DNA of 49,215 bases from NCBI GenBank assembly GCA_964014485.1, contig CAXHAT010000034.1:1-49215 (forward strand), read 5' to 3'. The stretch comes from an uncultured Deferribacteres bacterium. GTDB taxonomy: Bacteria; Zhuqueibacterota; Zhuqueibacteria; Zhuqueibacterales; Geothermadaptataceae. Below the pieces are notes generated by a model that saw nothing but the letters and a program-made list of their open reading frames with translations, ran no database searches and was not told the origin of the DNA. A program made the position numbers and the translations under genes. Shown here one piece after another: positions 7,565 through 43,960 of the stretch. Position 1 is the first letter of the stretch, and each line of letters opens with the position of its first letter.

Positions 7565-7621
7565 GGCGGGGGATCCTTGAAAGGGTGGTTTTGAAAATGT
7601 TTTGTTCTGATGATTCTGCCT

Positions 7622-7649
7622 GTAGAGACGCGATGCATCGCGTCTCTAC
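7622..7649. repeat. GTAG-type REP palindrome, class 1
   Basis: perfect palindrome GTAGAGACGCGATGCATCGCGTCTCTAC; identical copy at 11775. Confidence 0.9.
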
Positions 7650-7703
7650 AACATTCATTTTCAACAAAAAACGAGAAACCAAATCGCCGAATCAACCAAA
7701 AAA

Positions 7704-11764: not shown

Positions 11765-11774
11765 ACCGCCACTT

Positions 11775-11802
11775 GTAGAGACGCGATGCATCGCGTCTCT
11801 AC
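11775..11802. repeat. GTAG-type REP palindrome, class 1
   Basis: identical to 7622-7649. Confidence 0.9.
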
Positions 11803-11820
11803 ACAACCCCGAAGAATAAC

Positions 11821-20065: not shown

Positions 20066-20262
20066 AGAAGCTGTTTTTAAAGTCCCACAGGGACGGTCGA
20101 AAGTAGCCCGGAAGTGAACTTCCGGGGAAGATGACGTTTTGTTTTTTGTCGAGTCCCGTCAGGGACGGTTGAAAGTTTATCGCGTTTCCAGCCTCAATCG
20201 TCCCTGGCGATAAATTGTCTGGCTATTATCAAGCATCCTACGGGACTTTTAAAACAGTCTCT
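20066..20262. mobile_element. MITE-like element with terminal inverted repeats and AGTCCC..GGGAC REP-like core
   Basis: AGAAGCTGTTTTTAAAGTCCC ... GGGACTTTTAAAACAGTCTCT; internal AGTCCCACAGGGACG and AGTCCCGTCAGGGACG. Confidence 0.7.
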
Positions 20263-22445
20263 CAGAATTTATATCCAAGATTGAACGGCGTTGAAAGCCC
20301 GGCGACGCGGTTGTAGACAAAGCTGATTTCCGCCGGGCCAAGCGGCGTTTGCACCCCGAGCGTCACACCGACGCCGGAGGTGAACTCCCGCCAAGGCTGG
20401 GTGAATCGCCAATCCGGGAAGACGTTTCCGGCGTTGTAGCGCAAAATCAGGTACCGGCGTTTCCACGGCTCGATTTGCAGACCGATCATAAAGGCCTGCA
20501 TGTTGCGGTCAAAAATTTCATCCGTGCGCAGGCCAACAAACGAATCGACGCCGCCGAGGAAAAACTGTTTTTGAAACGGCAATTTGTCCGTCGCAATGTG
20601 TCCGGCCTGCACACGCGTCAATAACGAAACTTTGCGACTGAAGGGAATCGCCGTCCGCCAGTCGAAGGCGATGCGACGAAAATCCGTGTCGCCACCCAGG
20701 CTTTTGGAAGCGTACTCGCCCTGAATTTTTAATGAATGACCCACGCGTGGAAAATCAGTTCTGTCAAACGTGTCCCACTGAAACAGGCTAAAGACCGCGC
20801 CAATGTAGCGCGTTGTGTCCTGATAGCTCGTTGGCGCGATGTCTGGAAAAGTGCGGTCGATTTCGCCCTTGAGCCCGGCGCCGAAAAGAATCTTGCTGGA
20901 AAAGAGCGAGCCGACAAAAATTTCTCCGGCATATTCTTGCCCACGGATTCGAAGCTCGCGGGTTCCGGCGGCGTAAAAATCAATGGGTTTTTCATTGAAG
21001 CGCGCATTGAGCCGCACGCCGAGGCCGGGAAAAATCCCCGTGTGTACGAAGTAAGTCCCGTCAAACGCCGACCTCCCGGCAAGCGCCAGATCAAAAGACA
21101 AGACCGAGCCGTGCCCGGTGAGATTGCGAAAAGTCGTGTTGAAGAGAAACGACGCTTCATTGCGGCTGTCAAAACGTGCGCCCAGGCGGAAGAGCGCGGT
21201 GTTTTTTTCCTTGAGATCGAGCACGAGTCGTACGCCGTCGCCCAGCCGCGTTGTGCGATAAATAACCTGCTCAAAAAACTGCGAATTGTAAACCCGCTCA
21301 ACGCCAGCCATGAGTTGGTCGCGGGTGATCCATTGCTCTGCGTCGATGTTTAATTCCGCGCGCACCAGGCCGCTCGAAACGTGGCGCAAACCGTTGATCT
21401 CGATATTTTTGACCAACAACGAATCTAATTGCAATGGCTGGATTTTGACGGGCTTCGCTTGAAAATCCTGAAACTGCGCCAGCGAATCCAGCAGCTTCAA
21501 AATTGGGCCTTCTTGCGCACGAACGGCGTTGCGCCCCAGCTCGATCAGATCGGTCGTGTTGTTAAAAGCGGCAAACCGCAGTTCGCCAAGCTGAGGCGTA
21601 ACCAAAATATCGCAATTCTCCCGTTGCACGCGCGTGAATTGGTCCATGTGCAACGCCAAAATTTGATTGACATAATCGAAAAGAGAGCTGAGTTCAGCGT
21701 TGCTTTTCGGACGCGCGCTAACGTCCACGCCGACCACAATGTCCGCGCCCATGCTGCGCACGTCGTCGGCAGGCAGGTTTCGACTCAGGCCGCCGTCGAC
21801 CAACTTCCTGCCGTTGCGAATCACCGGCGGGATTACGCTGGGCACGGCCATGCTCGCCTTCATCGCTTCGGCCAAAAAACCGGAGCGGATAAAAATCGCT
21901 TCGCCAGTCTCAATATCCGCCGCGACGCAGCCGTAAGGAATAGGCAATTGATTGAAGTCCGTGATATTGTGCGCGGGCCAGGTCAGCTTGGAGAGCAGCG
22001 CGGTGATTTTCCAGTCCGTCAGCAGACCGGAGGGCAATTGCACCGAACGCCGACGAATGGGCAGGGTGATCATGTAGCGCGAATCCCACGGCTTCTCGGC
22101 CATTGTCAGTCGCCGCCGTTCCGCCGCGCCGGTAAAAAGCTCGACCCAGTCGGTGACCTGGATCATCGAATCCATCTGCGCGGGCGTGTAACCGACGGCG
22201 TACAGGCCGCCGACGATGCTGCCGATGCTGGTTCCGGCGATAAAATCGATGGGCACGCCGTATTCTTCGAGCTGCATCAAAGCGCCGATGTGGGCAAAGC
22301 CCTTTGCCCCGCCGCCGCTCAGCGCCAGCCCAATTTTCGGACGATTCGGGCCGTCCGCCGCCGGTTCAGTCTGCGCGTAAAGTCTATCGATCCCGCTGTC
22401 ATGCAGCAGTAAAACGAGAAAAACGATTTTTTTCATAAGCGGCAT
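20262..22445 (-). CDS. Patatin-like phospholipase with POTRA and Omp85 barrel (PlpD-like, type Vd)
   Basis: GGGAKG, GTSIG, DGG patatin motifs; POTRA-like IEINGL segment; C-terminal NLGYKF. Confidence 0.92.
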   Translation of the reverse strand: MPLMKKIVFLVLLLHDSGIDRLYAQTEPAADGPNRPKIGLALSGGGAKGFAHIGALMQLEEYGVPIDFIAGTSIGSIVGGLYAVGYTPAQMDSMIQVTDWVELFTGAAERRRLTMAEKPWDSRYMITLPIRRRSVQLPSGLLTDWKITALLSKLTWPAHNITDFNQLPIPYGCVAADIETGEAIFIRSGFLAEAMKASMAVPSVIPPVIRNGRKLVDGGLSRNLPADDVRSMGADIVVGVDVSARPKSNAELSSLFDYVNQILALHMDQFTRVQRENCDILVTPQLGELRFAAFNNTTDLIELGRNAVRAQEGPILKLLDSLAQFQDFQAKPVKIQPLQLDSLLVKNIEINGLRHVSSGLVRAELNIDAEQWITRDQLMAGVERVYNSQFFEQVIYRTTRLGDGVRLVLDLKEKNTALFRLGARFDSRNEASFLFNTTFRNLTGHGSVLSFDLALAGRSAFDGTYFVHTGIFPGLGVRLNARFNEKPIDFYAAGTRELRIRGQEYAGEIFVGSLFSSKILFGAGLKGEIDRTFPDIAPTSYQDTTRYIGAVFSLFQWDTFDRTDFPRVGHSLKIQGEYASKSLGGDTDFRRIAFDWRTAIPFSRKVSLLTRVQAGHIATDKLPFQKQFFLGGVDSFVGLRTDEIFDRNMQAFMIGLQIEPWKRRYLILRYNAGNVFPDWRFTQPWREFTSGVGVTLGVQTPLGPAEISFVYNRVAGLSTPFNLGYKF

Positions 22446-22505
22446 GATACAAAAATCCCGTGCACAAAGCTCGCTTTACGAACCGACTGTACGCAAAACG
22501 ATTGC

Positions 22506-22533
22506 GTAGGGGCGCGGGGTGCCGCGTCTCTAC
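22506..22533. repeat. Degenerate GTAG-type REP, class 1
   Basis: GTAGGGGCGCGGGGTGCCGCGTCTCTAC. Confidence 0.7.
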
Positions 22534-22598
22534 CTGTTTCGCCTTGGAATTTTTACCCGATTCAATTATTTTCCCGCGCATAACAATCATTTTGAACC

Positions 22599-23594
22599 AT
22601 GAACACGGGGAAACAGAAATTGCCGCAGAAACCGCGCGTTTTTATCAGCCACGCCTGGGAAGACAAGCCAACCGTCTACCGCCTCGAGGAAAAGCTGCGC
22701 CAGGCCGGGGCGGAAGTCTGGGTTGACCACAGCGCAGCCCGGGCGGGCGACAACTTGCCAAAGCGTATTAGTGAAGCGCTGGCCTGGTGTTCCTGCCTGC
22801 TGCTCGTTTGGTCTGAACACGCCGAAAAATCCCATTGGGTGGAACTGGAATGGAGCAACGCCGTCTCCCTGCGCAAATTGATCATCCCCTGCCTGCTCGA
22901 TGGCCGCGCCACCCCGCCCATTCTCGCCAGCACCCTACACGCGCCTTTTAAGGATTTTGATTTGGGCTTGCAGCAAATCTGCGCCGCATTGGGCATGAGA
23001 ATCCTTGCGCGGGAGCCTGTTGTTGAGACACCTGTTCCAAAATCTGAAAATCCGCCGCCAAATGTCATTCCCGCGCAGGCGGGAATCCAGAAAACTGTGC
23101 CGCTACAACCAATTTTCAGAACAGAAAGCCGGACGCTTTCTGAAGACGATGTAGAGCAAATGCTCGCTAGGCACGGTTTCTTTGATAGTCGTAAAAATTC
23201 AAGCGGGAAAGGCTTTGACAACGATTTTAAGCTGATCGAGCGACAAGGCAAAAAGTTGGTGCTTGATCGCGCCAGCGGCCTGACTTGGCAGCAATCAGGC
23301 TCGTCCGAATATTTGAACTATAAGAACGCAGAAGCTTATGTCAAAGATTTGAACAAAAAGACGTTCGCGGGTTACCGCGACTGGCGCTTGCCGACGCTGG
23401 AAGAAGCGATGTCGTTGATGGAGCCTCAAAAAAACAGGGAAGACTTGTACATAGCCCCGGTCTTTGACGCGAAACAAGAATGGATTTGGACGGCGGATAA
23501 AGCGTCGCCAGGAGCTTGGCCTATTAATTTCATCAATGGTTGCCCCGATTGGTTTACCCTCGTCCCTAGCTACGTTCGCGCCGTTCGTTCCTGA
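22599..23594 (+). CDS. TIR domain plus Lcl/DUF1566 (C-type-lectin-like) protein; putative DGR target
   Basis: RVFISHA..D, WVD, S.WVELEW (TIR with putative catalytic Glu); D..SGLTWQ, DWRLPTLEE, WIWTAD, YVRAVR (DUF1566). Confidence 0.9.
   Translation: MNTGKQKLPQKPRVFISHAWEDKPTVYRLEEKLRQAGAEVWVDHSAARAGDNLPKRISEALAWCSCLLLVWSEHAEKSHWVELEWSNAVSLRKLIIPCLLDGRATPPILASTLHAPFKDFDLGLQQICAALGMRILAREPVVETPVPKSENPPPNVIPAQAGIQKTVPLQPIFRTESRTLSEDDVEQMLARHGFFDSRKNSSGKGFDNDFKLIERQGKKLVLDRASGLTWQQSGSSEYLNYKNAEAYVKDLNKKTFAGYRDWRLPTLEEAMSLMEPQKNREDLYIAPVFDAKQEWIWTADKASPGAWPINFINGCPDWFTLVPSYVRAVRS
23064..23090 (+). repeat. In-frame REP half-element inside the TIR-Lcl linker (encodes VIPAQAGIQ)
   Basis: GTCATTCCCGCGCAGGCGGGAATCCAG; same family as 17741 and 26622. 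Confidence 0.85.
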
Positions 23595-23747
23595 TAATCT
23601 TGATCATCTGGCCCTTTGAGTTATTTGACTCTTTAAGGGGCGGAATACGAGACGAAGCGGCTCTCAAAAAGCAGAGCGTTGATTATTCCACCCCCCTAAA
23701 AAGTTGAGGCCGTGCCGTGAATGTTCTCATGTGCAGAGCCGTTCCTT
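23514..23747 (+). repeat. Putative DGR variable region 1 (23514-23594) plus conserved downstream IMH/hairpin element
   Basis: all non-Trp codons between AW and YVRAVR end in C/T; 23595-23747 is highly similar to 26194-26346. Confidence 0.7.
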
Positions 23748-23899
23748 GCAAAATCGGGTGTGCCAGTAAACACTTGGCTTTTGACAGAAAAAAGTTTAAT
23801 ATTTTCCAGCATGAGCGCCGCACATTTCTTGGCGGCGGTCGAAGTTTTAGAAACGAGCGTCGATTGACAAGTCTGATGCTCTAAACGAAGAGGCGAACG

Positions 23900-24151
23900 A
23901 TGACTTTAGATTCCATCCCCCGGCTCAAAAAACCGGACGAAGCGCTCATCACGCGCATCGAAACACTAGAAGCAAAAAACAAGGGCATGGTCGCCGCCAT
24001 TGATCCGGACAGCGGCGATTATTTTCTCGGAAACGATACAATGACGGCGGTTAAAAAAGGCCGCCAACAGCGCCCCGAGGCCGTGTTTTATTGTATTCGC
24101 ATTGGCTACCCCGGCGTCTACGAACATCGCGGAAGCTTGGTCAAGGCGTGA
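23900..24151 (+). CDS. Small DUF5678-like protein, partner of a clan AA aspartic protease
   Basis: G..AAIDPDSGDYFLG...A...R...P...Y.IRIG pattern; GAGG RBS; GTGA overlap with the next gene. Confidence 0.7.
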   Translation: MTLDSIPRLKKPDEALITRIETLEAKNKGMVAAIDPDSGDYFLGNDTMTAVKKGRQQRPEAVFYCIRIGYPGVYEHRGSLVKA

Positions 24152-24531
24152 CGACTGCACTGAAAGGCGCCGTCAAAAATCGCAAGCCCGTCGTATCCGC
24201 CGCAGCCGATGCCGAGGGGCACGTTGACTTGGCCTCCACCCAAAAAGAATTCGAGCTCATTATTGATACGGGGTTTACGGGATTCATTGTTTTGCCGCGC
24301 AAACTTGTGCCGAAGCTCGACATTAAATTCCTGGGCTATGAGAGATTCGCGCTTGCGACCGGAAAAACGATGGATTTGCCGGTTTTTGAAGGCTGGGTAA
24401 AAACGCAAAACGACCCAATGAAAATTGAAATGGTCTTTGGCGATGAAATTATTGGGATGGCCATGCTGCAAATGATCGGCTCCAAATTGATCGTTGATTT
24501 CGAAAAGAATGAAGTGGAACTGATCGGTTGA
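24148..24531 (+). CDS. Clan AA (retropepsin-like) aspartic protease, AF_0612 type
   Basis: IDTGFTG motif, LATG, IIGM..L; GTG start overlapping the upstream stop. Confidence 0.85.
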   Translation: MTTALKGAVKNRKPVVSAAADAEGHVDLASTQKEFELIIDTGFTGFIVLPRKLVPKLDIKFLGYERFALATGKTMDLPVFEGWVKTQNDPMKIEMVFGDEIIGMAMLQMIGSKLIVDFEKNEVELIG

Positions 24532-24549
24532 TAAAACAGGAAGCCGAAA

Positions 24550-26193
24550 TTGGCGGACAAGCAAAACACAAATAATCGTCTCGCTCTCTGGCTGCCGGTG
24601 GCGGCTGTGATTGTTGCTGCACTGATTACAACGTACAAAATCTCCTGCGACGCCGGGTCACCACAATTCGTCTTGACTGACAAAAGCTTCCACTCGGACA
24701 AAATCATCACCGTGCGGTCCGCCAATGACGCCGCCCGTAAGAACAAAGCGTTGTTCGCCGAAATCGACGGTTTTCGCATGGTCGGCGAGCCGGTGAAGCC
24801 GCGCAAGGAAAACGGCGAATGGTATTGGCGCTTGCCCGCCGATGCGTTTCCTGATTCCGCCCGCACGGAAGCCGTGCATGAACTGCGGCTCGGGTTCGAT
24901 CTCGGGAAAATGACTTCCGCCGGTAAAATCGTTTTCGACCGCGGCGACCCGGAAGCCGGGGTAACGATTTCTGACGGCACATTTGGGGGAAAAGATATCT
25001 TCGCAGAATTCAGCGACGACAATCCGGACGTCAACCAAAAAATTAAGGCCGAGATTTCGTTTCGTTATCGCGGAGAGACCAAGACGATCCCTGTGCCGTT
25101 GCGCCGTATCACCGACGAAACCGGCGAGACCTTTTACGAACTGGAGTACAGCCTGCAAAGCCTGCCGCTCTACACGCCTGGCGATCCCGAATTTTACCAG
25201 CCTTATTTTGCTCTGGTGATTACTGATGAGGCGGGCAACCAGTTTCGGCGCGTCGCCACTTACAATAAATTTATTGCAACGGGCGAGGAATATTTTGGCA
25301 ACCGCGACATTGAAGCAAAACTTGAGCGGCTCGACGCGGAAACCTTTGCCCGGCGCTACAACAAATCGCCGGAAATTTTAGACATTCCCGCGCCGCATAA
25401 CGAAGCTTCCGGCAATCCTCTAATCGCGCTGAGAATCGTTTTGCGGGAACGAACCTACGTCAAACTCTCATGGACCCGTTTACCGCCCGAACTGCGCCCG
25501 GAACAGGAGCGTTTCACCATCTTTGGCGACGAGCGCGAAATCGGCGTATCCTTTGACACCACCTTTGTGGATGATACGCCGTTCCCGACTGAAGAGCGCG
25601 ACTACCGCGTGCTCGCAGAGGGCACCGACGGCAAGGAATATCCCAGCAACATCGCCAAAACAAGCCCGGACACAACCGCGCCGCCGCCCCCGGCGATTAC
25701 ACTGCGCAAAGAGCCGCGAACGCTGGCTGAAAGCGATATTCAGGCGATTCTAGATCAATACGATTTTTGGCACACAGGAAAATATGATTTAGGTTGGGAA
25801 AACCCGGACGGCAAAGGCGTGGACAATCGCTTTCAGCGGCGGCAAAACGGCGCGTTGATTCATGACGCGACCACTGGTCTGACCTGGCAGCAATCCGGCT
25901 CCGACAGCGCGCTAACCTACGCCGAAGCGGAAAAATACATTGACCGGCTCAATCAGGAGCGATTCGGCGGCTTTAGCGACTGGCGCTTACCGACGCTGGA
26001 GGAAGCGATGTCGTTGATGGAGCCCCGGCGCAGCAGTGCGCGCTTGTACATCGATCCGATCTTCGACGCGAAGCAGCCCTGGATTTGGACGGCGGACAAA
26101 GCGTCGTCGGGCGCCTGGTACGTTTATTTCTATCTTGGCTACTGCGATTGGTACGGCCTCGTCTTCGGCTACGTTCGTGCAGTGCGTTTCTGA
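24550..26193 (+). CDS. Membrane-anchored protein with beta-sandwich region and C-terminal Lcl/DUF1566 domain; putative DGR target
   Basis: N-terminal hydrophobic helix; Pro-rich linker; D.TTGLTWQ, DWRLPTLEE, WIWTAD, YVRAVR. Confidence 0.85.
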   Translation: MADKQNTNNRLALWLPVAAVIVAALITTYKISCDAGSPQFVLTDKSFHSDKIITVRSANDAARKNKALFAEIDGFRMVGEPVKPRKENGEWYWRLPADAFPDSARTEAVHELRLGFDLGKMTSAGKIVFDRGDPEAGVTISDGTFGGKDIFAEFSDDNPDVNQKIKAEISFRYRGETKTIPVPLRRITDETGETFYELEYSLQSLPLYTPGDPEFYQPYFALVITDEAGNQFRRVATYNKFIATGEEYFGNRDIEAKLERLDAETFARRYNKSPEILDIPAPHNEASGNPLIALRIVLRERTYVKLSWTRLPPELRPEQERFTIFGDEREIGVSFDTTFVDDTPFPTEERDYRVLAEGTDGKEYPSNIAKTSPDTTAPPPPAITLRKEPRTLAESDIQAILDQYDFWHTGKYDLGWENPDGKGVDNRFQRRQNGALIHDATTGLTWQQSGSDSALTYAEAEKYIDRLNQERFGGFSDWRLPTLEEAMSLMEPRRSSARLYIDPIFDAKQPWIWTADKASSGAWYVYFYLGYCDWYGLVFGYVRAVRF

Positions 26194-26386
26194 CAATCTT
26201 GATCATTTGGCTCTTTGAGTTATTTGACTCTTTAGGAGGTGGAATACGAGACGAAGCGACTCTCAAAAAGCAGAGCGTTGATTATTCCACCCTCTGAAAA
26301 AATCGTCGTCGCGTCGTGAATGTTCTCATGTGCAAAGCCGTTCCTTTCGGCCACTCGCGCGCGTTAGCGCGCCTCAAAATTTTTTT
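26113..26386 (+). repeat. Putative DGR variable region 2 (26113-26193) plus conserved downstream element and GCGCGC-GTTA-GCGCGC hairpin
   Basis: NNY codon pattern; downstream copy of 23595-23747; hairpin 26357-26372 followed by CTCAAAATTTTTTT. Confidence 0.72.
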
Positions 26387-26418
26387 AAAATCCGCCCGTC
26401 TCATTCTTCACAAAAACC

Positions 26419-26446
26419 ATCCGATTTTTTGCGTTTATTCGTCTAA
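26419..26446 (+). promoter_or_regulatory. Putative ECF sigma promoter ATCCG-N16-CGTCTAA
   Basis: same boxes and spacing recur at 33113-33140; lies upstream of the ECF gene at 26835. Confidence 0.6.
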
Positions 26447-26465
26447 ACAGAAACTTCGGTTTGCG

Positions 26466-26780
26466 GTCATTCCCGCAAAAGCGCAAAGCGCCGGAATTCC
26501 CCCTTTGAAGGGGGTTAGGGGGATGTTTTTCAACTTTGTCGAAATGGCAATAGTCCCAAACATCCCCCCGCTCCTTCATTTATGGATAGGTTTTTCTTTT
26601 TTACTCGAAAGCGCCGCTTTTGTCATACCCGCGCAGGCGGGTATCCAGCTTTGGGGCGCCGTTGTCTGGATACCCGCCGGAGTTTATCCTCGCGCAGGCG
26701 GGGACAAGTATGACACAGTGGATTGAGCTAAATTTTTCAAAAACCTACCCTTTAAAACCGTCCCCTTCAAAGAGGGAAAT
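26466..26780. repeat. Mosaic of REP-like elements (GTCATACCCGCG doublet 26622-26714; CCCCTTTGAAGGGGG-type hairpins)
   Basis: GTCATACCCGCGCAGGCGGGTATCCAG..CTGGATACCCGCC; CCCCCTTTGAAGGGGGTTAGGGGGATGT / ACATCCCCC. Confidence 0.7.
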
Positions 26781-26834
26781 TTGCGCGCTTCGCCCGGATG
26801 ACAAGCTGAACGAATTAAGTTCGGAGCGCCAAAG

Positions 26835-27638
26835 ATGGCTGAAAAATATGAAACCATTTCGGTGGAGCAGTTTCAGGAGCAATTTCTGGATTTGCACGCC
26901 AAGCTCACGTCCTATCTTTTCCGTCTCACCGCCAACCGGCAGGACGCTGAGGATTTGGCGCACGACGCTTACCTGAAGGCGCTGCGCAATCTGGCCGGGT
27001 TCGCCGGAAAGTCGAGCCTGAAAACGTGGCTTTTTTCCATTGCCACCAATTTGGCCAAGGATCATTTTCGCGTGCGCCAGCGCTGGCAGGTCGATTCGCA
27101 GGATCATTGCCGGGAAGATACGCAGGCCTCGCCGGAGAAGGTCAATCGTATGCGCGAGATTGTGGCGGAGTCGCCGGCGGAAGCGTATGAATTTCAGGAA
27201 CACATCGATTATTGCTTTACTTGCATCGCCAAAACACTGGAAATCGAGCAGCAATTGATCTTGATTTTGAAAGAAATCTACACTTTCAAAGTGTCAGAGA
27301 TCATGGAGATTTTGGGGCAGACGGAAGGCCGGGTCAAGTACGCGCTTTCGCAGGCGCGCAAACGCATTTCCGAGATTTACGAGCAGCGCTGCGAGCTGGT
27401 GAACAAGAGCGGGGCCTGCTGGCAATGCTCCGAGATCAATGATTTTATCCGCCCCGCGCGCGACGGCAAACAACAGCTTGTCCAGCTTCAATTGCGCCGT
27501 GAAGCAAAAAAAGGCGCGTCAAAAGAGCGACTGCTTGATCTGCGCACGGAATTGGTAAAAGGCGTCGATTCGCTCGGTTCGCCGGGTGCGGCGTTACACG
27601 AATATTTGCTGACGCTGATTCCGGAAAGTTTGCGTTGA
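26835..27638 (+). CDS. ECF sigma-70 factor with Cys-rich C-terminal extension
   Basis: DAEDLAHD.Y, F.GKSSLKTWLFSIATN; region 4; CFTC and CELVNKSGACWQC. Confidence 0.9.
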   Translation: MAEKYETISVEQFQEQFLDLHAKLTSYLFRLTANRQDAEDLAHDAYLKALRNLAGFAGKSSLKTWLFSIATNLAKDHFRVRQRWQVDSQDHCREDTQASPEKVNRMREIVAESPAEAYEFQEHIDYCFTCIAKTLEIEQQLILILKEIYTFKVSEIMEILGQTEGRVKYALSQARKRISEIYEQRCELVNKSGACWQCSEINDFIRPARDGKQQLVQLQLRREAKKGASKERLLDLRTELVKGVDSLGSPGAALHEYLLTLIPESLR

Positions 27639-27704: not shown

Positions 27705-27958
27705 GACGCCATAAAAAATATTACGGTTTTGGAGAGCCCACTACCCCGGCTCATCCGTTAAGCGTCATTCTCGCCCCCGCCTGCCCGAGAATGACCGAGA
27801 TTCAGATATGAAAAAGCATAGCATTCCTTGATTCATTTTATCAAACACTGGACGTTTGACGCCGAAGCGCTTCTTCCTGAACTCGCCACGCTCCTCTTGG
27901 ATAGAAAATCCCCCCTTCGTACTTTTCGAAAACGCATAAAAATTCACACGCAAACTCT

Positions 27959-28155
27959 CTACCTGACACTTTTTTGTAAACCGCCTTCTCGAGCCGTTGA
28001 AAGGTCCAGTTTTGTCATTCTGAAGGAATCTTTGTTATCGCCCAGTACAGATCATGCTCAAAAGTTCAAGGGTCGGGTCAAAAAAGATGCTTCCAGCATG
28101 ACAATTCCGGTCTTTTTCGCCAGTCTTAGAAGGCTATACAAAAAGTGTCAGGTAG
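27959..28155 (+). mobile_element. ~195-bp MITE, family A copy 1
   Basis: TIRs CTACCTGACACTTTTT(T)GTA / TACAAAAAGTGTCAGGTAG; core GTCATTCTG..TTGTTATCGCCCAGTAC..CAGCATGAC. Confidence 0.88.
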
Positions 28156-30986: not shown

Positions 30987-30997
30987 ATTGAAACGCT

Positions 30998-31188
30998 CTA
31001 CCTGACACTTTTTTGTATACTGCATTTTCGAGCCGTCTAAAGGTCCCGTTTTGTCATTCTGGAAGAATCTTTGTTATCGCCCAGTACAGATCATGCTCAA
31101 AAGTTCAAGGGTACGGATCAAAAAAGATGCTTTCAGCATGACAATTCCGGCCTCTTTCGCCAACATCAGAAACCTACACAAAAAGTGT
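30998..31188 (+). mobile_element. MITE family A copy 2 (right TIR degenerate)
   Basis: collinear with 27959-28155. Confidence 0.85.
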
Positions 31189-36059: not shown

Positions 36060-36253
36060 CTACCTGACACTTTTGTATAGGTTCTAAAACTGGCGAAAGA
36101 GGCCGGGATTGTCATGCTGGAGGCGTCTTTTTTGATCCGATCCTTGAACTTTTGAGCATGATCTGTACTGGGCGATAACAAAGATTCTTCCAGAATGACA
36201 AAACGAAGCCTTCGACGGCTCGAAAATACAGTTTACAAAAAAGTGTCAGGTAG
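36060..36253 (-). mobile_element. MITE family A copy 3
   Basis: reverse complement of copy 1; supplies the queD stop codon. Confidence 0.88.
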
Positions 36254-37702: not shown

Positions 37703-37788
37703 TTTTCTTTGAGATATGGCGCGATTCTGCAATTCATCGGCGTGCAAGTCTTGGCCTAGGCTTCTGTTTGGCATAAGCCGGAGTCGAA

Positions 37789-37923
37789 CTGTCGAAAAAG
37801 CGCCGAGTTGTCAAATTGTAAGCATCTTTTTTGATCTAACCTTTGAACTTGTGAGCGTAATCTGTATCGGGCGATAACAAAGATTCTTACAGAATGACAT
37901 GCAGACAGTTTTTCGACAATCTC
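37789..37923 (-). mobile_element. Element with the family A core but different ends (CTGTCGAAAAAG / TTTTTCGACAA)
   Basis: AGCATCTTTTTTGATC..TTGAACTT..GGGCGATAACAAAGATTCTT.CAGAATGAC core. Confidence 0.7.
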
Positions 37924-43744: not shown

Positions 43745-43960
43745 CTACCTGACACTTTTTGTATAGCCTTCCAAGATTGGCGAAAAAGGCCGGATTTGTC
43801 ATGCCGTAAGCATCTTTTTTGATCCAATCCTTGAACTTTCAGGCATGATCCGTACTGGGCGATAACAAAGATTTTGCTTCGCCGGCCTTTGGCTCTGCAG
43901 AATGACAAAACTGGACCTTTCAACGGCTCGAAAAGGCGGTTTACAAAAAGTGCCAGGTAG
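43745..43960 (-). mobile_element. MITE family A copy 4 (with ~20-bp internal insertion)
   Basis: same TIRs and core; extra GCTTCGCCGGCCTTTGGCTC segment. Confidence 0.88.

What the first reader, a model, noticed from the sequence alone, without database searches (positions are those of the whole stretch)
22599..26386. Paired putative DGR target genes: a cytoplasmic TIR-Lcl protein and a membrane-anchored Lcl protein, without RT or template in the window
Seen: both genes end in DUF1566/Lcl domains whose scaffold is very similar at DNA level (e.g. GACTGGCGCTT[G/A]CCGACGCTGGA[A/G]GAAGCGATGTCGTTGATGGAGCC). The 17 codons between AW and YVRAVR differ at 11 residues (PINFINGCPDWFTLVPS vs YVYFYLGYCDWYGLVFG), and every non-Trp codon in both ends in C or T. 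Known: adenine mutagenesis of AAY template codons gives this NNY pattern, and C-type-lectin-fold domains are standard DGR targets. Inference: these are remote targets of a DGR elsewhere in the genome, coupling a hypervariable ligand sensor to a TIR with an intact WxxxE glutamate (possible NADase or immune signalling) and to a surface-displayed version. Five third-position C/T differences suggest drift or two templates.
Basis: partly seen in the sequence, partly recalled or inferred. Interest (0 to 1): 0.8.

Follow-up and report, generated by a model that had tools for sequence, protein, structure and literature searches.

The report
DGR target genes lacking their template
Two neighbouring genes, one a TIR "immune-effector" protein and one a membrane-anchored protein, end in a lectin-like domain carrying the footprint of retroelement-driven hypermutation, but the template that wrote them is not in this genome assembly.

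Summary
Gene A (22599-23594, TIR_2 + Lcl_C) and gene B (24550-26193, N-terminal hydrophobic helix + Lcl_C) each have 17 codons between AW and YVRAVR. All 16 non-Trp codons in each end in C or T.

The DGR reading is partly supported.
- The genome holds two Avd-type DGR cassettes that target Lcl_C domains (contigs C74 and C135) and a third of another type (C94).
- The C74 template matches four variable regions with adenine-only mismatches. One belongs to a TIR-Lcl paralogue of A on another contig.
- B is a full-length paralogue of the C135 cassette's own target.
- No template in the 8.4-Mb assembly fits A or B. The best adenine-tolerant match still has 14-17 non-adenine mismatches in 77 nt.
- B and a paralogue on C5 differ at 12 of 98 bases in the template-sized span. 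All 12 are at codon positions 1-2 and none of 31 third positions differ, against 38 of 84 upstream. They were therefore rewritten from one shared template that is missing.
- A has drifted at synonymous sites and looks frozen.

TIR-Lcl proteins are a large family, mostly from candidate division KSB1, and a relative's TIR-Lcl is a verified DGR target. This is a new member of a known kind.

The parts
22599..23594 (+). Gene A: 331-aa TIR-Lcl protein with no signal peptide or hydrophobic helix (the TIR starts at residue 14)
   Evidence: ORF. Pfam TIR_2 E 1.7e-23 and Lcl_C E 4.8e-19. 52% identical to the C135 paralogue P0010, a verified target of the C74 template.
22638..22976 (+). TIR domain of A (residues 14-126), with W80xxxE84
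   Evidence: Pfam. The AlphaFold model's best Foldseek hits are SARM1, SPARTA TIR-APAZ, PdTIR and AbTir (E 1.6e-5 to 4e-4). E84 is invariant in 32 of 32 homologues.
23067..23091 (+). REP-like palindromic element lying in frame in the disordered linker of A
   Evidence: 305 copies (up to 3 substitutions) on 155 contigs of the genome. Contig depth 352 in run X1. Linker residues 138-168 have pLDDT below 50.
23256..23588 (+). Lcl_C (DUF1566) domain of A
23520..23570 (+). Variable region of A (17 codons, 16/16 non-Trp NNY)
   Evidence: No cognate template in the assembly.
23571..23602 (+). 3' constant end of A's template-sized span and its IMH-like end. It reads GATAATC where the 8 other NNY-type variable regions of the genome read GACAATC.
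   Evidence: Read from the sequences printed. The C74 template itself has T at this base.
23595..23760 (+). Conserved 3' flank of A (copy 1 of 4 in the genome)
23900..24151 (+). 83-aa ORF between A and B, matching no family
24091..24531 (+). Clan AA (DTGF) aspartic-protease-like ORF between A and B
   Evidence: TIGR03698, E 4.5e-9, 36.6 bits, below the 57.35-bit cut-off.
24550..26193 (+). Gene B: 547-aa protein with an N-terminal hydrophobic helix (about residues 11-29), a middle part of unknown fold and a C-terminal Lcl_C
   Evidence: 35% identical over residues 5-535 to P0127, the cis target of the C135 DGR. The helix and its N-in orientation are read from the sequence (inference). The Ig-like or fn3 leads for the middle part are weak.
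25858..26187 (+). Lcl_C domain of B
   Evidence: Model pLDDT 88.9; best PDB hit is the Legionella Lcl C-terminal domain 8q4e (E 1.4e-3), then C-type lectin-like domains.
26101..26201 (+). Template-sized span of B: 5' constant 18-mer, variable region 26119-26169, 3' constant 24-mer and GACAATC
   Evidence: Identical to the C5 paralogue at every base except 12 first or second positions of variable codons. The two constant ends occur only in B and C5.
26194..26346 (+). Conserved 3' flank of B (copy 2 of 4), containing an imperfect long inverted repeat
   Evidence: The predicted stem is mostly invariant. DNA folding z-scores are only -0.5 to -2.1.
26356..26385 (+). GC hairpin (6-bp stem, 4-nt loop) followed by a T-run after a 7-nt spacer; a terminator-like end of the conserved 3' region
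   Evidence: Read. Pairs 174-187 of the alignment include two with changes on both sides. The terminator scan did not call it.

Best explanation
A and B are acceptor (variable-protein) genes of the Avd-type, Lcl_C-targeting DGR system that is abundant in this lineage. Each carries a C-terminal C-type-lectin-like Lcl_C domain. Its last ~17 codons were written by adenine-mutagenic reverse transcription of an AAY-rich template. After the stop come an IMH-like end and a conserved ~150-nt 3' region. The templates that wrote them are not the two Lcl-type templates in the assembly. B, and a TIR-Lcl paralogue on contig C5, were overwritten from one shared third template after the paralogues diverged, and recently enough that no synonymous drift has accumulated. 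That template, with or without its own RT, most likely lies in DNA missing from this 465-contig assembly (about 50%), or was lost very recently. A was written from a different or older template, has drifted since, carries a template-like base in its IMH-like end, and is probably frozen. Functionally (inferred): A is a cytoplasmic sensor-effector, in which a variable lectin face binds a ligand and ligand-driven clustering switches on a TIR NAD+-consuming domain. B displays the same kind of variable face outside the membrane on a stalk.
For: - Domains.
- NNY footprint: 16/16 in both genes, P 1e-5 and 8e-5, with verified and non-DGR paralogues as controls.
- Own genome: 6 RVT_1 matches. C74, C135 and C94 carry the DGR-type LGxxxSQ motif (motif recalled). 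Avd reading frames start directly after the C135 and C74 targets, and Pfam 23S_rRNA_IVP is weakly matched on C135. AAY-rich templates were printed.
- The C74 template against four variable regions gives 12-18 adenine mismatches and 0 non-adenine mismatches before the IMH. One of the four is the TIR-Lcl paralogue at C135:21514-22452.
- The C135 template against its cis target gives 18 adenine and 0 non-adenine mismatches plus a 3-nt insertion in the AAC run. Against its second target it gives 19 adenine and 2 internal non-adenine mismatches.
- B against C5: 88/252 differences upstream (38/84 at third positions). In the template-sized span there are 12/98, with 0/31 at third positions and all 12 at positions 1-2 of variable codons.
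- B is homologous over its full length to the C135 cis target.
- In relative G025, one template matches both its cis target (15 adenine, 0 other) and the adjacent TIR-Lcl gene (13 adenine, 0 other).
- The family alignments show hypervariable columns exactly at these positions.
Against: - No cognate template was found. Adenine-tolerant scans of all 465 contigs give at best 14-17 non-adenine mismatches in 77 nt for A and B.
- B's 24-nt 3' constant end occurs only in B and C5, and A's only in A.
- Exact-pattern scans of genome contigs, metagenome contigs and viral contigs, and a scan of 29 genomes of the order allowing up to 3 mismatches, found no further copy of this scaffold.
- No variation was seen. 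Logan contigs from two other samples of the same study carry the same variable regions (X3 over A, X2 over B, depth 2-3). The 90% clusters of A and B hold one sequence each. The same is true of the verified targets P0010 and P0127, so this does not discriminate.
- B and C5 differ in length by one codon.
- The functional part (NADase activity, ligand sensing, membrane topology) is inference only.
Confidence: 0.55

Rival explanations
1. Both variable regions are fossils. The DGR that wrote A, B and the C5 paralogue has been lost from the genome, and all three are now ordinary, fixed lectin-like domains.
For: No cognate template in an assembly rated 97% complete. None in 28 relatives of the order or in three public collections. 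Identical variable regions in contigs of other samples. A shows synonymous drift across the template-sized span, with 11/31 third positions different from B.
Against: B and C5 show 0 differences at 31 third positions and at all constant first and second positions of the span, while the adjoining coding DNA differs at 38/84 third positions. The loss would therefore have to be very recent. The assembly has 465 contigs and contig depth in the holder runs is only about 5, so a 3-kb repeat-bearing cassette could easily be missing.
Confidence: 0.35
2. A and B are current trans targets of one of the two Lcl-type DGRs already in the assembly (the C74 or C135 template).
For: The C74 template does act in trans on two other contigs, including a TIR-Lcl gene with the same 3' flank family as A and B. 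A's 3' constant end is only 3 substitutions from the C74 template's end.
Against: 17 or more non-adenine mismatches in 77 nt to either template. A templated TGG codon in A, B and C5 lies where both templates have AAC. The verified targets have 0 non-adenine mismatches before the IMH.
Confidence: 0.03
3. No DGR is involved. The NNY pattern comes from codon bias or selection for particular residues, and the B/C5 identity comes from paralogue gene conversion.
For: Lcl_C paralogues without DGR signs still have fairly high NNY counts (C130 15/17, C45 17/18).
Against: Gene conversion would also homogenise the 12 variable bases. Those differences fall only at codon positions 1-2 of the codons that are AAY in the related templates. 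Paralogues of both genes are verified targets.
Confidence: 0.04

Closest known systems
DUF1566/Lcl_C-type (CLec2, 'category d') DGR targets, exemplified by Legionella LdtA (Wu et al. 2018, PMC5758913; passages read)
   Same: The variable region lies at the C-terminus of a DUF1566-type lectin-like domain. About half of such targets carry appended N-terminal domains. LdtA is surface-displayed, as is proposed for B.
   Different: No cognate template lies beside or elsewhere in the assembly. B is anchored by an N-terminal helix rather than a lipoprotein signal (read from the sequence). A is cytoplasmic with a TIR domain, and TIR is not mentioned in that survey (0 occurrences).
DGR-diversified putative antigen sensors with conflict-system effectors in Thiohalocapsa PB-PSB1 and other multicellular bacteria (Dore et al. 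2024, PMC10907252; passages read)
   Same: C-type lectin variable regions are fused to or linked with TIR, caspase-like or NTPase domains. Some loci are incomplete or remote and are diversified in trans. One remote locus showed no diversification.
   Different: There the TIR sits in large STAND, CHAT or vWA-MoxR architectures with FGE-sulfatase-type lectin domains. Here it is a minimal 331-aa TIR + Lcl_C fusion with no NTPase switch, in a KSB1-like lineage.
Treponema denticola DGR with multiple remote targets (as summarised in PMC5758913; passages read)
   Same: One template serves several genes far from the RT. Here the C74 template serves four variable regions on three contigs.
   Different: For A and B themselves, the template is not found.
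NAD+-consuming TIR effectors: SARM1, SPARTA TIR-APAZ, AbTir, Thoeris ThsB
   Same: TIR fold and a conserved WxxxE glutamate. Domain-level hits to defence TIR models.
   Different: All NCBIfam scores are far below the family cut-offs (39 against 600 bits, 31 against 220). No partner genes of those systems were found beside A: no family match among the four ORFs of 22599-26193 apart from A's own TIR domain. The sensor is a variable lectin domain instead of Argonaute, SAVED, ARM or a ThsA partner.

Membership tests
DGR variable (target) protein | Variable region inside a C-terminal C-type-lectin-fold domain | tested here: met
   Lcl_C E 4.8e-19 (A) and 1.1e-18 (B). The model of B's domain (pLDDT 88.9) best matches the Legionella Lcl C-terminal domain 8q4e, then C-type lectin-like domains (E 1.4e-3 and weaker).
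DGR variable (target) protein | A cognate template repeat that differs from the variable region only at template adenines | tested here: not met
   The best adenine-tolerant match in all 465 contigs has 14-17 non-adenine mismatches in 77 nt. The constant ends are not found elsewhere. None found in public collections or relatives. The assembly is incomplete (97%, 465 contigs), so absence from the organism is not shown.
DGR variable (target) protein | DGR-type RT, with an accessory gene, in the same genome | tested here: met
   RVT_1 matches on C74, C135 and C94 with the SQ-containing motif. Avd-like ORFs sit next to the C74 and C135 templates.
DGR variable (target) protein | Adenine-mutagenesis footprint: variable codons restricted to NNY, with differences at codon positions 1-2 | tested here: met
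   16/16 NNY in both genes. B against C5: 12 differences, all at positions 1-2, 0 of 31 at position 3.
DGR variable (target) protein | IMH-type 3' end and downstream recognition element like those of verified targets | tested here: inconclusive
   B has GACAATC, like the 7 other such variable regions (6 verified plus C5); A has GATAATC. Both share the 3' flank of the verified target C135:21514-22452. The function of these elements is untested, and fold energies are not exceptional.
DGR variable (target) protein | Sequence variation of the variable region within a population | tested here: inconclusive
   Only Logan contigs at depth 2-7 were available. Identical variable regions in X2 (B) and X3 (A), and no contig over A's variable region in X1.
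TIR NAD+-consuming effector | TIR fold | tested here: met
   TIR_2 E 1.7e-23. Foldseek hits to SARM1, SPARTA, PdTIR and AbTir.
TIR NAD+-consuming effector | Catalytic glutamate | tested here: inconclusive
   W80xxxE84 is present and E84 is invariant in 32 of 32 homologues. Its equivalence to the SARM1 catalytic glutamate is recalled, not shown by a residue-level superposition here.
TIR NAD+-consuming effector | NAD+ cleavage or a defence phenotype | not testable with these tools
   Needs an enzyme assay and phage challenge.
Thoeris / retron-TIR / SPARTA (named TIR defence systems) | Full-length match above the curated cut-off, with partner genes | tested here: not met
   NCBIfam scores of 39.3 against 600 bits and 30.8 against 220 bits, covering the TIR domain only. 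PADLOC hits are TIR-domain only, and the neighbouring ORFs match nothing.

The most novel reading that the evidence does not exclude
TIR-Lcl proteins are a minimal, NTPase-less class of DGR-diversified intracellular immune receptors: a variable lectin face wired directly to a TIR effector. A genome keeps a repertoire of them, each tied to a different template. Here there are four paralogues: one written by the C74 template, one (C5) by a missing third template shared with the surface protein B, one (A) frozen, and one never diversified. The ~500-nt module of Lcl_C, IMH-like end and conserved 3' region would be a portable acceptor cassette that lets a few RT/Avd pairs service many sensors in trans.
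Probability: 0.3. Interest if true: 0.75.

Novelty: new member of a known kind. Interest (0 to 1): 0.45.

Why it matters
DGR-diversified lectin sensors fused to immune effectors have been proposed as a bacterial analogue of antigen receptors, but they rest on few examples, mostly large STAND or vWA architectures. This locus belongs to a large family (2118 hits at E <= 0.001; all 120 listed carry both domains) with the simplest possible design, TIR plus variable lectin. That makes it a tractable model for testing whether ligand binding by a hypervariable domain can switch on a TIR. The genome also shows that acceptors can outlive, or be separated from, their template. Surveys that need RT, template and variable region on one contig will therefore miss such genes.

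Tried and rejected
- **Read evidence for variation.** Only Logan contigs of three runs of one study were available, at depth about 2-7, so there is no verdict. The gap over A's variable region in X1 proves nothing.
- **Rfam on 22000-27000.** Only two chance-level hits (E 0.78 and 0.85).
- **Flank as a structured element.** RNAalifold predicts a long stem, but most pairs are invariant across only 4 sequences. DNA folding z-scores are -0.5 to -2.1. The terminator scan does not call it. The structure is therefore unproven.
- **Flank pattern scans.** Scans of metagenome contigs and genome contigs found nothing.
- **Scaffold pattern scans.** Scans of genome contigs, metagenome contigs and viral contigs found nothing. 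Among 29 genomes of the order, only four chance-like 3-mismatch hits appeared.
- **AAY-rich window scan of the genome.** Too noisy to use as run. It did reveal other, FGE-sulfatase-type template-like repeats on C1 and C343.
- **C94 DGR.** Its template is of the FGE-sulfatase type and is unrelated to A and B.
- **PDB sequence search with A's Lcl_C domain.** No meaningful hit.
- **ESM Atlas for B residues 35-380.** Only weak Ig-like or fn3 leads (scores up to 0.85, TM below 0.5).
- **Earlier findings of this scan.** Nothing to show.
- **Script-based tblastn with Avd and RT proteins.** This step was not run. The question was covered by family searches.


Full report
**1. What is in the window**

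Gene A (22599-23594, +) encodes 331 aa. Pfam gives TIR_2 (residues 14-126, E 1.7e-23) and Lcl_C/DUF1566 (220-330, E 4.8e-19). Gene B (24550-26193, +) encodes 547 aa with Lcl_C at 437-546 (E 1.1e-18) and no other Pfam domain.

A has no signal peptide or hydrophobic helix. B has a hydrophobic stretch at about residues 11-29, preceded by K and R. I read this as an N-in membrane anchor with the rest of the protein outside; that is inference from the sequence.

The 17 codons between AW and YVRAVR lie at 23520-23570 and 26119-26169. They differ at 11 of 17 residues. All 16 non-Trp codons in each gene end in C or T. The rest of each gene has 155/314 and 295/530 such codons, giving P 1.2e-5 and 8.5e-5.

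**2. The genome does carry DGRs that target this domain**

The window is contig C34 of an 8.4-Mb, 465-contig assembly rated 97% complete. A Pfam RVT_1 search finds 6 RTs.
- The RTs on C74, C135 and C94 carry the LGxxxSQ motif of DGR RTs (the motif is recalled).
- C74 and C135 have the classic order: Lcl_C target, avd, AAY-rich template, RT, second Lcl_C target.
- C94 is a different kind, with an FGE-sulfatase-type template.
- Thirteen Lcl_C domains are found in the genome.

**3. Which variable regions belong to which template**

An adenine-tolerant scan shows that the C74 template matches four variable regions. Adenine mismatches number 12-18, and there are no non-adenine mismatches before the IMH. 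The four are:
- its two cis targets;
- one on C30;
- one at C135:21514-22452, a TIR-Lcl protein 52% identical to A.

The C135 template matches its second target with 19 adenine and 2 internal non-adenine mismatches. It matches its primary target with 18 adenine mismatches, 0 others, and one extra codon in the AAC run. Remote (trans) targeting of a TIR-Lcl gene therefore does occur in this genome.

**4. A and B have no template in the assembly**

- The same kind of scan with A's and B's spans (121 nt and 77 nt) finds only the genes themselves. The next best windows have 14-17 non-adenine mismatches in 77 nt. The C135 template has 17.
- B's 24-nt 3' constant end occurs only in B and in a paralogue on C5. 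A's occurs only in A. No partial copy sits at a contig end.
- A, B and C5 share a templated TGG codon where both known templates have AAC.
- A pattern of the scaffold's constant positions finds nothing in genome contigs, metagenome contigs or viral contigs. Among 29 genomes of the order it finds only A, B and C5, plus four 3-mismatch chance-like hits.

**5. B was nevertheless written from a template, one it shares with C5**

B and the C5 gene (a 354-aa TIR-Lcl protein, P0079) differ at 88 of 252 bases in the Lcl_C coding DNA upstream of the span, including 38 of 84 third positions.

Inside the 98-nt span that corresponds to the templates of the other DGRs, they differ at 12 bases. All 12 are at first or second positions of variable codons, and 0 of 31 are at third positions. 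Paralogue gene conversion would have erased those 12 differences. Overwriting of both genes from one AAY-rich template explains the pattern.

The one-codon length difference between B and C5 has a precedent in the C135 cis target.

The complete lack of drift means this third template was in use recently. I put about even odds on it being present but unassembled, against recently lost. The contigs laid have depth of only about 5.

**6. A looks older**

Against B, A differs at 31 of 98 bases of the span, including 11 of 31 third positions. That is close to the 42 of 84 seen upstream.

A's IMH-like end reads GATAATC. The 8 other NNY-type variable regions of the genome read GACAATC, and the C74 template itself has T at that base. 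Whether this base matters is untested. If it does, A is no longer a competent acceptor.

**7. The 3' flank**

A, B, C5 and the verified C135 TIR-Lcl target share about 150 nt after the stop. Pairwise differences there are:
- A/B: 18 of 150;
- B/C5: 20 of 150;
- A/C5: 32 of 150.

All are below the 88 of 252 seen in the coding DNA.

The first ~40 nt are also shared with the other variable regions of the genome, and with relatives, but not with the templates. The rest contains an imperfect long inverted repeat and ends in a GC hairpin with a T-run.
- Covariation is minimal.
- Fold energies are unexceptional.
- Rfam has nothing.
- The flank is found nowhere else.

One bearer is a working target of the C74 template, so the flank is compatible with homing. 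I take it to be a conserved 3' UTR or acceptor element, but this is inference.

**8. The family**

- A's search returns 2118 proteins at E <= 0.001. All 120 listed carry both PF07603 and PF13676, and many are named candidate division KSB1.
- In an alignment of 32, the TIR core (including E84) is invariant. The columns matching A's variable codons are hypervariable.
- In relative G025, one template matches both its cis target (15 adenine, 0 other) and the adjacent TIR-Lcl gene (13 adenine, 0 other).
- B is 35% identical over residues 5-535 to the C135 cis target.
- The same Lcl_C module is fused elsewhere to caspase, kinase, nSTAND, CHAT and other domains.
- The model of A (pLDDT 75.9) matches NAD+-consuming TIRs. 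The model of B's Lcl_C domain (pLDDT 88.9) best matches the Legionella Lcl C-terminal domain, then C-type lectin-like domains.

Rows from the unpublished genomes G016 and G023 (L024, L042, L044) are 3 of the 32 rows of alignment A4 and appear in the tallies. No claim here rests on them alone.

**9. How it most likely works**

Shown:
- the domain make-up;
- the mutagenesis footprint;
- paralogy to verified targets;
- a shared missing template for B and C5.

Inferred:
- The variable face of the lectin-like domain binds a ligand.
- In A, binding to a multivalent ligand clusters the TIR and turns on NAD+ consumption or signalling, as oligomerisation does in SARM1 and SPARTA (recalled knowledge).
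- B presents a variable face outside the cell.

**10. Comparison with print**

- DUF1566-type variable regions and remote targets are described in PMC5758913 (passages read).
- TIR, CHAT and NTPase domains in DGR targets, trans-diversified remote loci and one undiversified locus are described in PMC10907252 (passages read).
- DGR-linked conflict systems are described in PMC7159879 (passages read).
- PMC8144416 (passages read) states that its pipeline cannot see remote targets.
- Searches for DGR with TIR and DUF1566, with KSB1, and with TIR domain and NADase listed no paper whose title or abstract describes a TIR + DUF1566 DGR target. Supplements were not read and may list such proteins.

**11. 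Verdict**

This is a real feature and a real DGR footprint, but the retroelement link for these two genes is incomplete. It is a new member of a known kind, of moderate interest.

Noticed in passing
window 23067-23091 (also 17743, 17807 on the minus strand, 26625): A REP-like palindromic element lies in frame inside gene A's disordered linker. It has 305 copies (up to 3 substitutions) on 155 contigs of the genome, and contig depth 352 in run X1. A copy also sits just upstream of the C74 template and around the C94 DGR.
   Followed up: partly
window 23900-24151 and 24091-24531: Two small overlapping ORFs lie between A and B. One is an 83-aa protein with no family. The other is a clan AA (DTGF) aspartic-protease-like protein (TIGR03698, E 4.5e-9, below cut-off). 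Their relation to A and B is unknown.
   Followed up: partly
window 20262-22445 (-): A 727-aa protein combining a patatin-like phospholipase N-terminus with an Omp85/BamA-like C-terminus, directly upstream of gene A on the opposite strand.
   Followed up: no
G000 contig C94:25800-28400: A third DGR of another type: a target with an FGE-sulfatase-type variable region, an accessory ORF that looks HRDC-like by eye (not tested), an RT of 344 aa, and a template downstream of the RT near the contig end. Further template-like AAY-rich repeats lie on C1 (~112145) and C343 (~819-897, next to a weak Avd match).
   Followed up: partly
G000 contig C45:3782-4126 (-): An Lcl_C paralogue with 17/18 NNY codons. 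Its downstream DNA keeps only the distal part of the conserved 3' flank and lacks the inverted-repeat part. It may be a decayed acceptor.
   Followed up: no
G000 contig C322:587-850 (-): A fourth TIR-Lcl paralogue (P0111, 305 aa). Its variable-region-equivalent stretch has codons ending in A or G and a different length, so it lacks the DGR footprint.
   Followed up: partly
window 27952-28148 vs 30991-31188: A ~200-nt direct repeat (85-89% identical) about 3 kb apart, in the region of the sigma-factor genes.
   Followed up: no
window 36088-36200, 37787-37899, 43775-43887: A three-copy 113-nt repeat family, 79-80% identical.
   Followed up: no
window 7621-7650 and 11774-11803: Two identical copies of a perfect 30-nt palindrome, with a 70% copy at 22505-22534 just upstream of gene A.
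   Followed up: no
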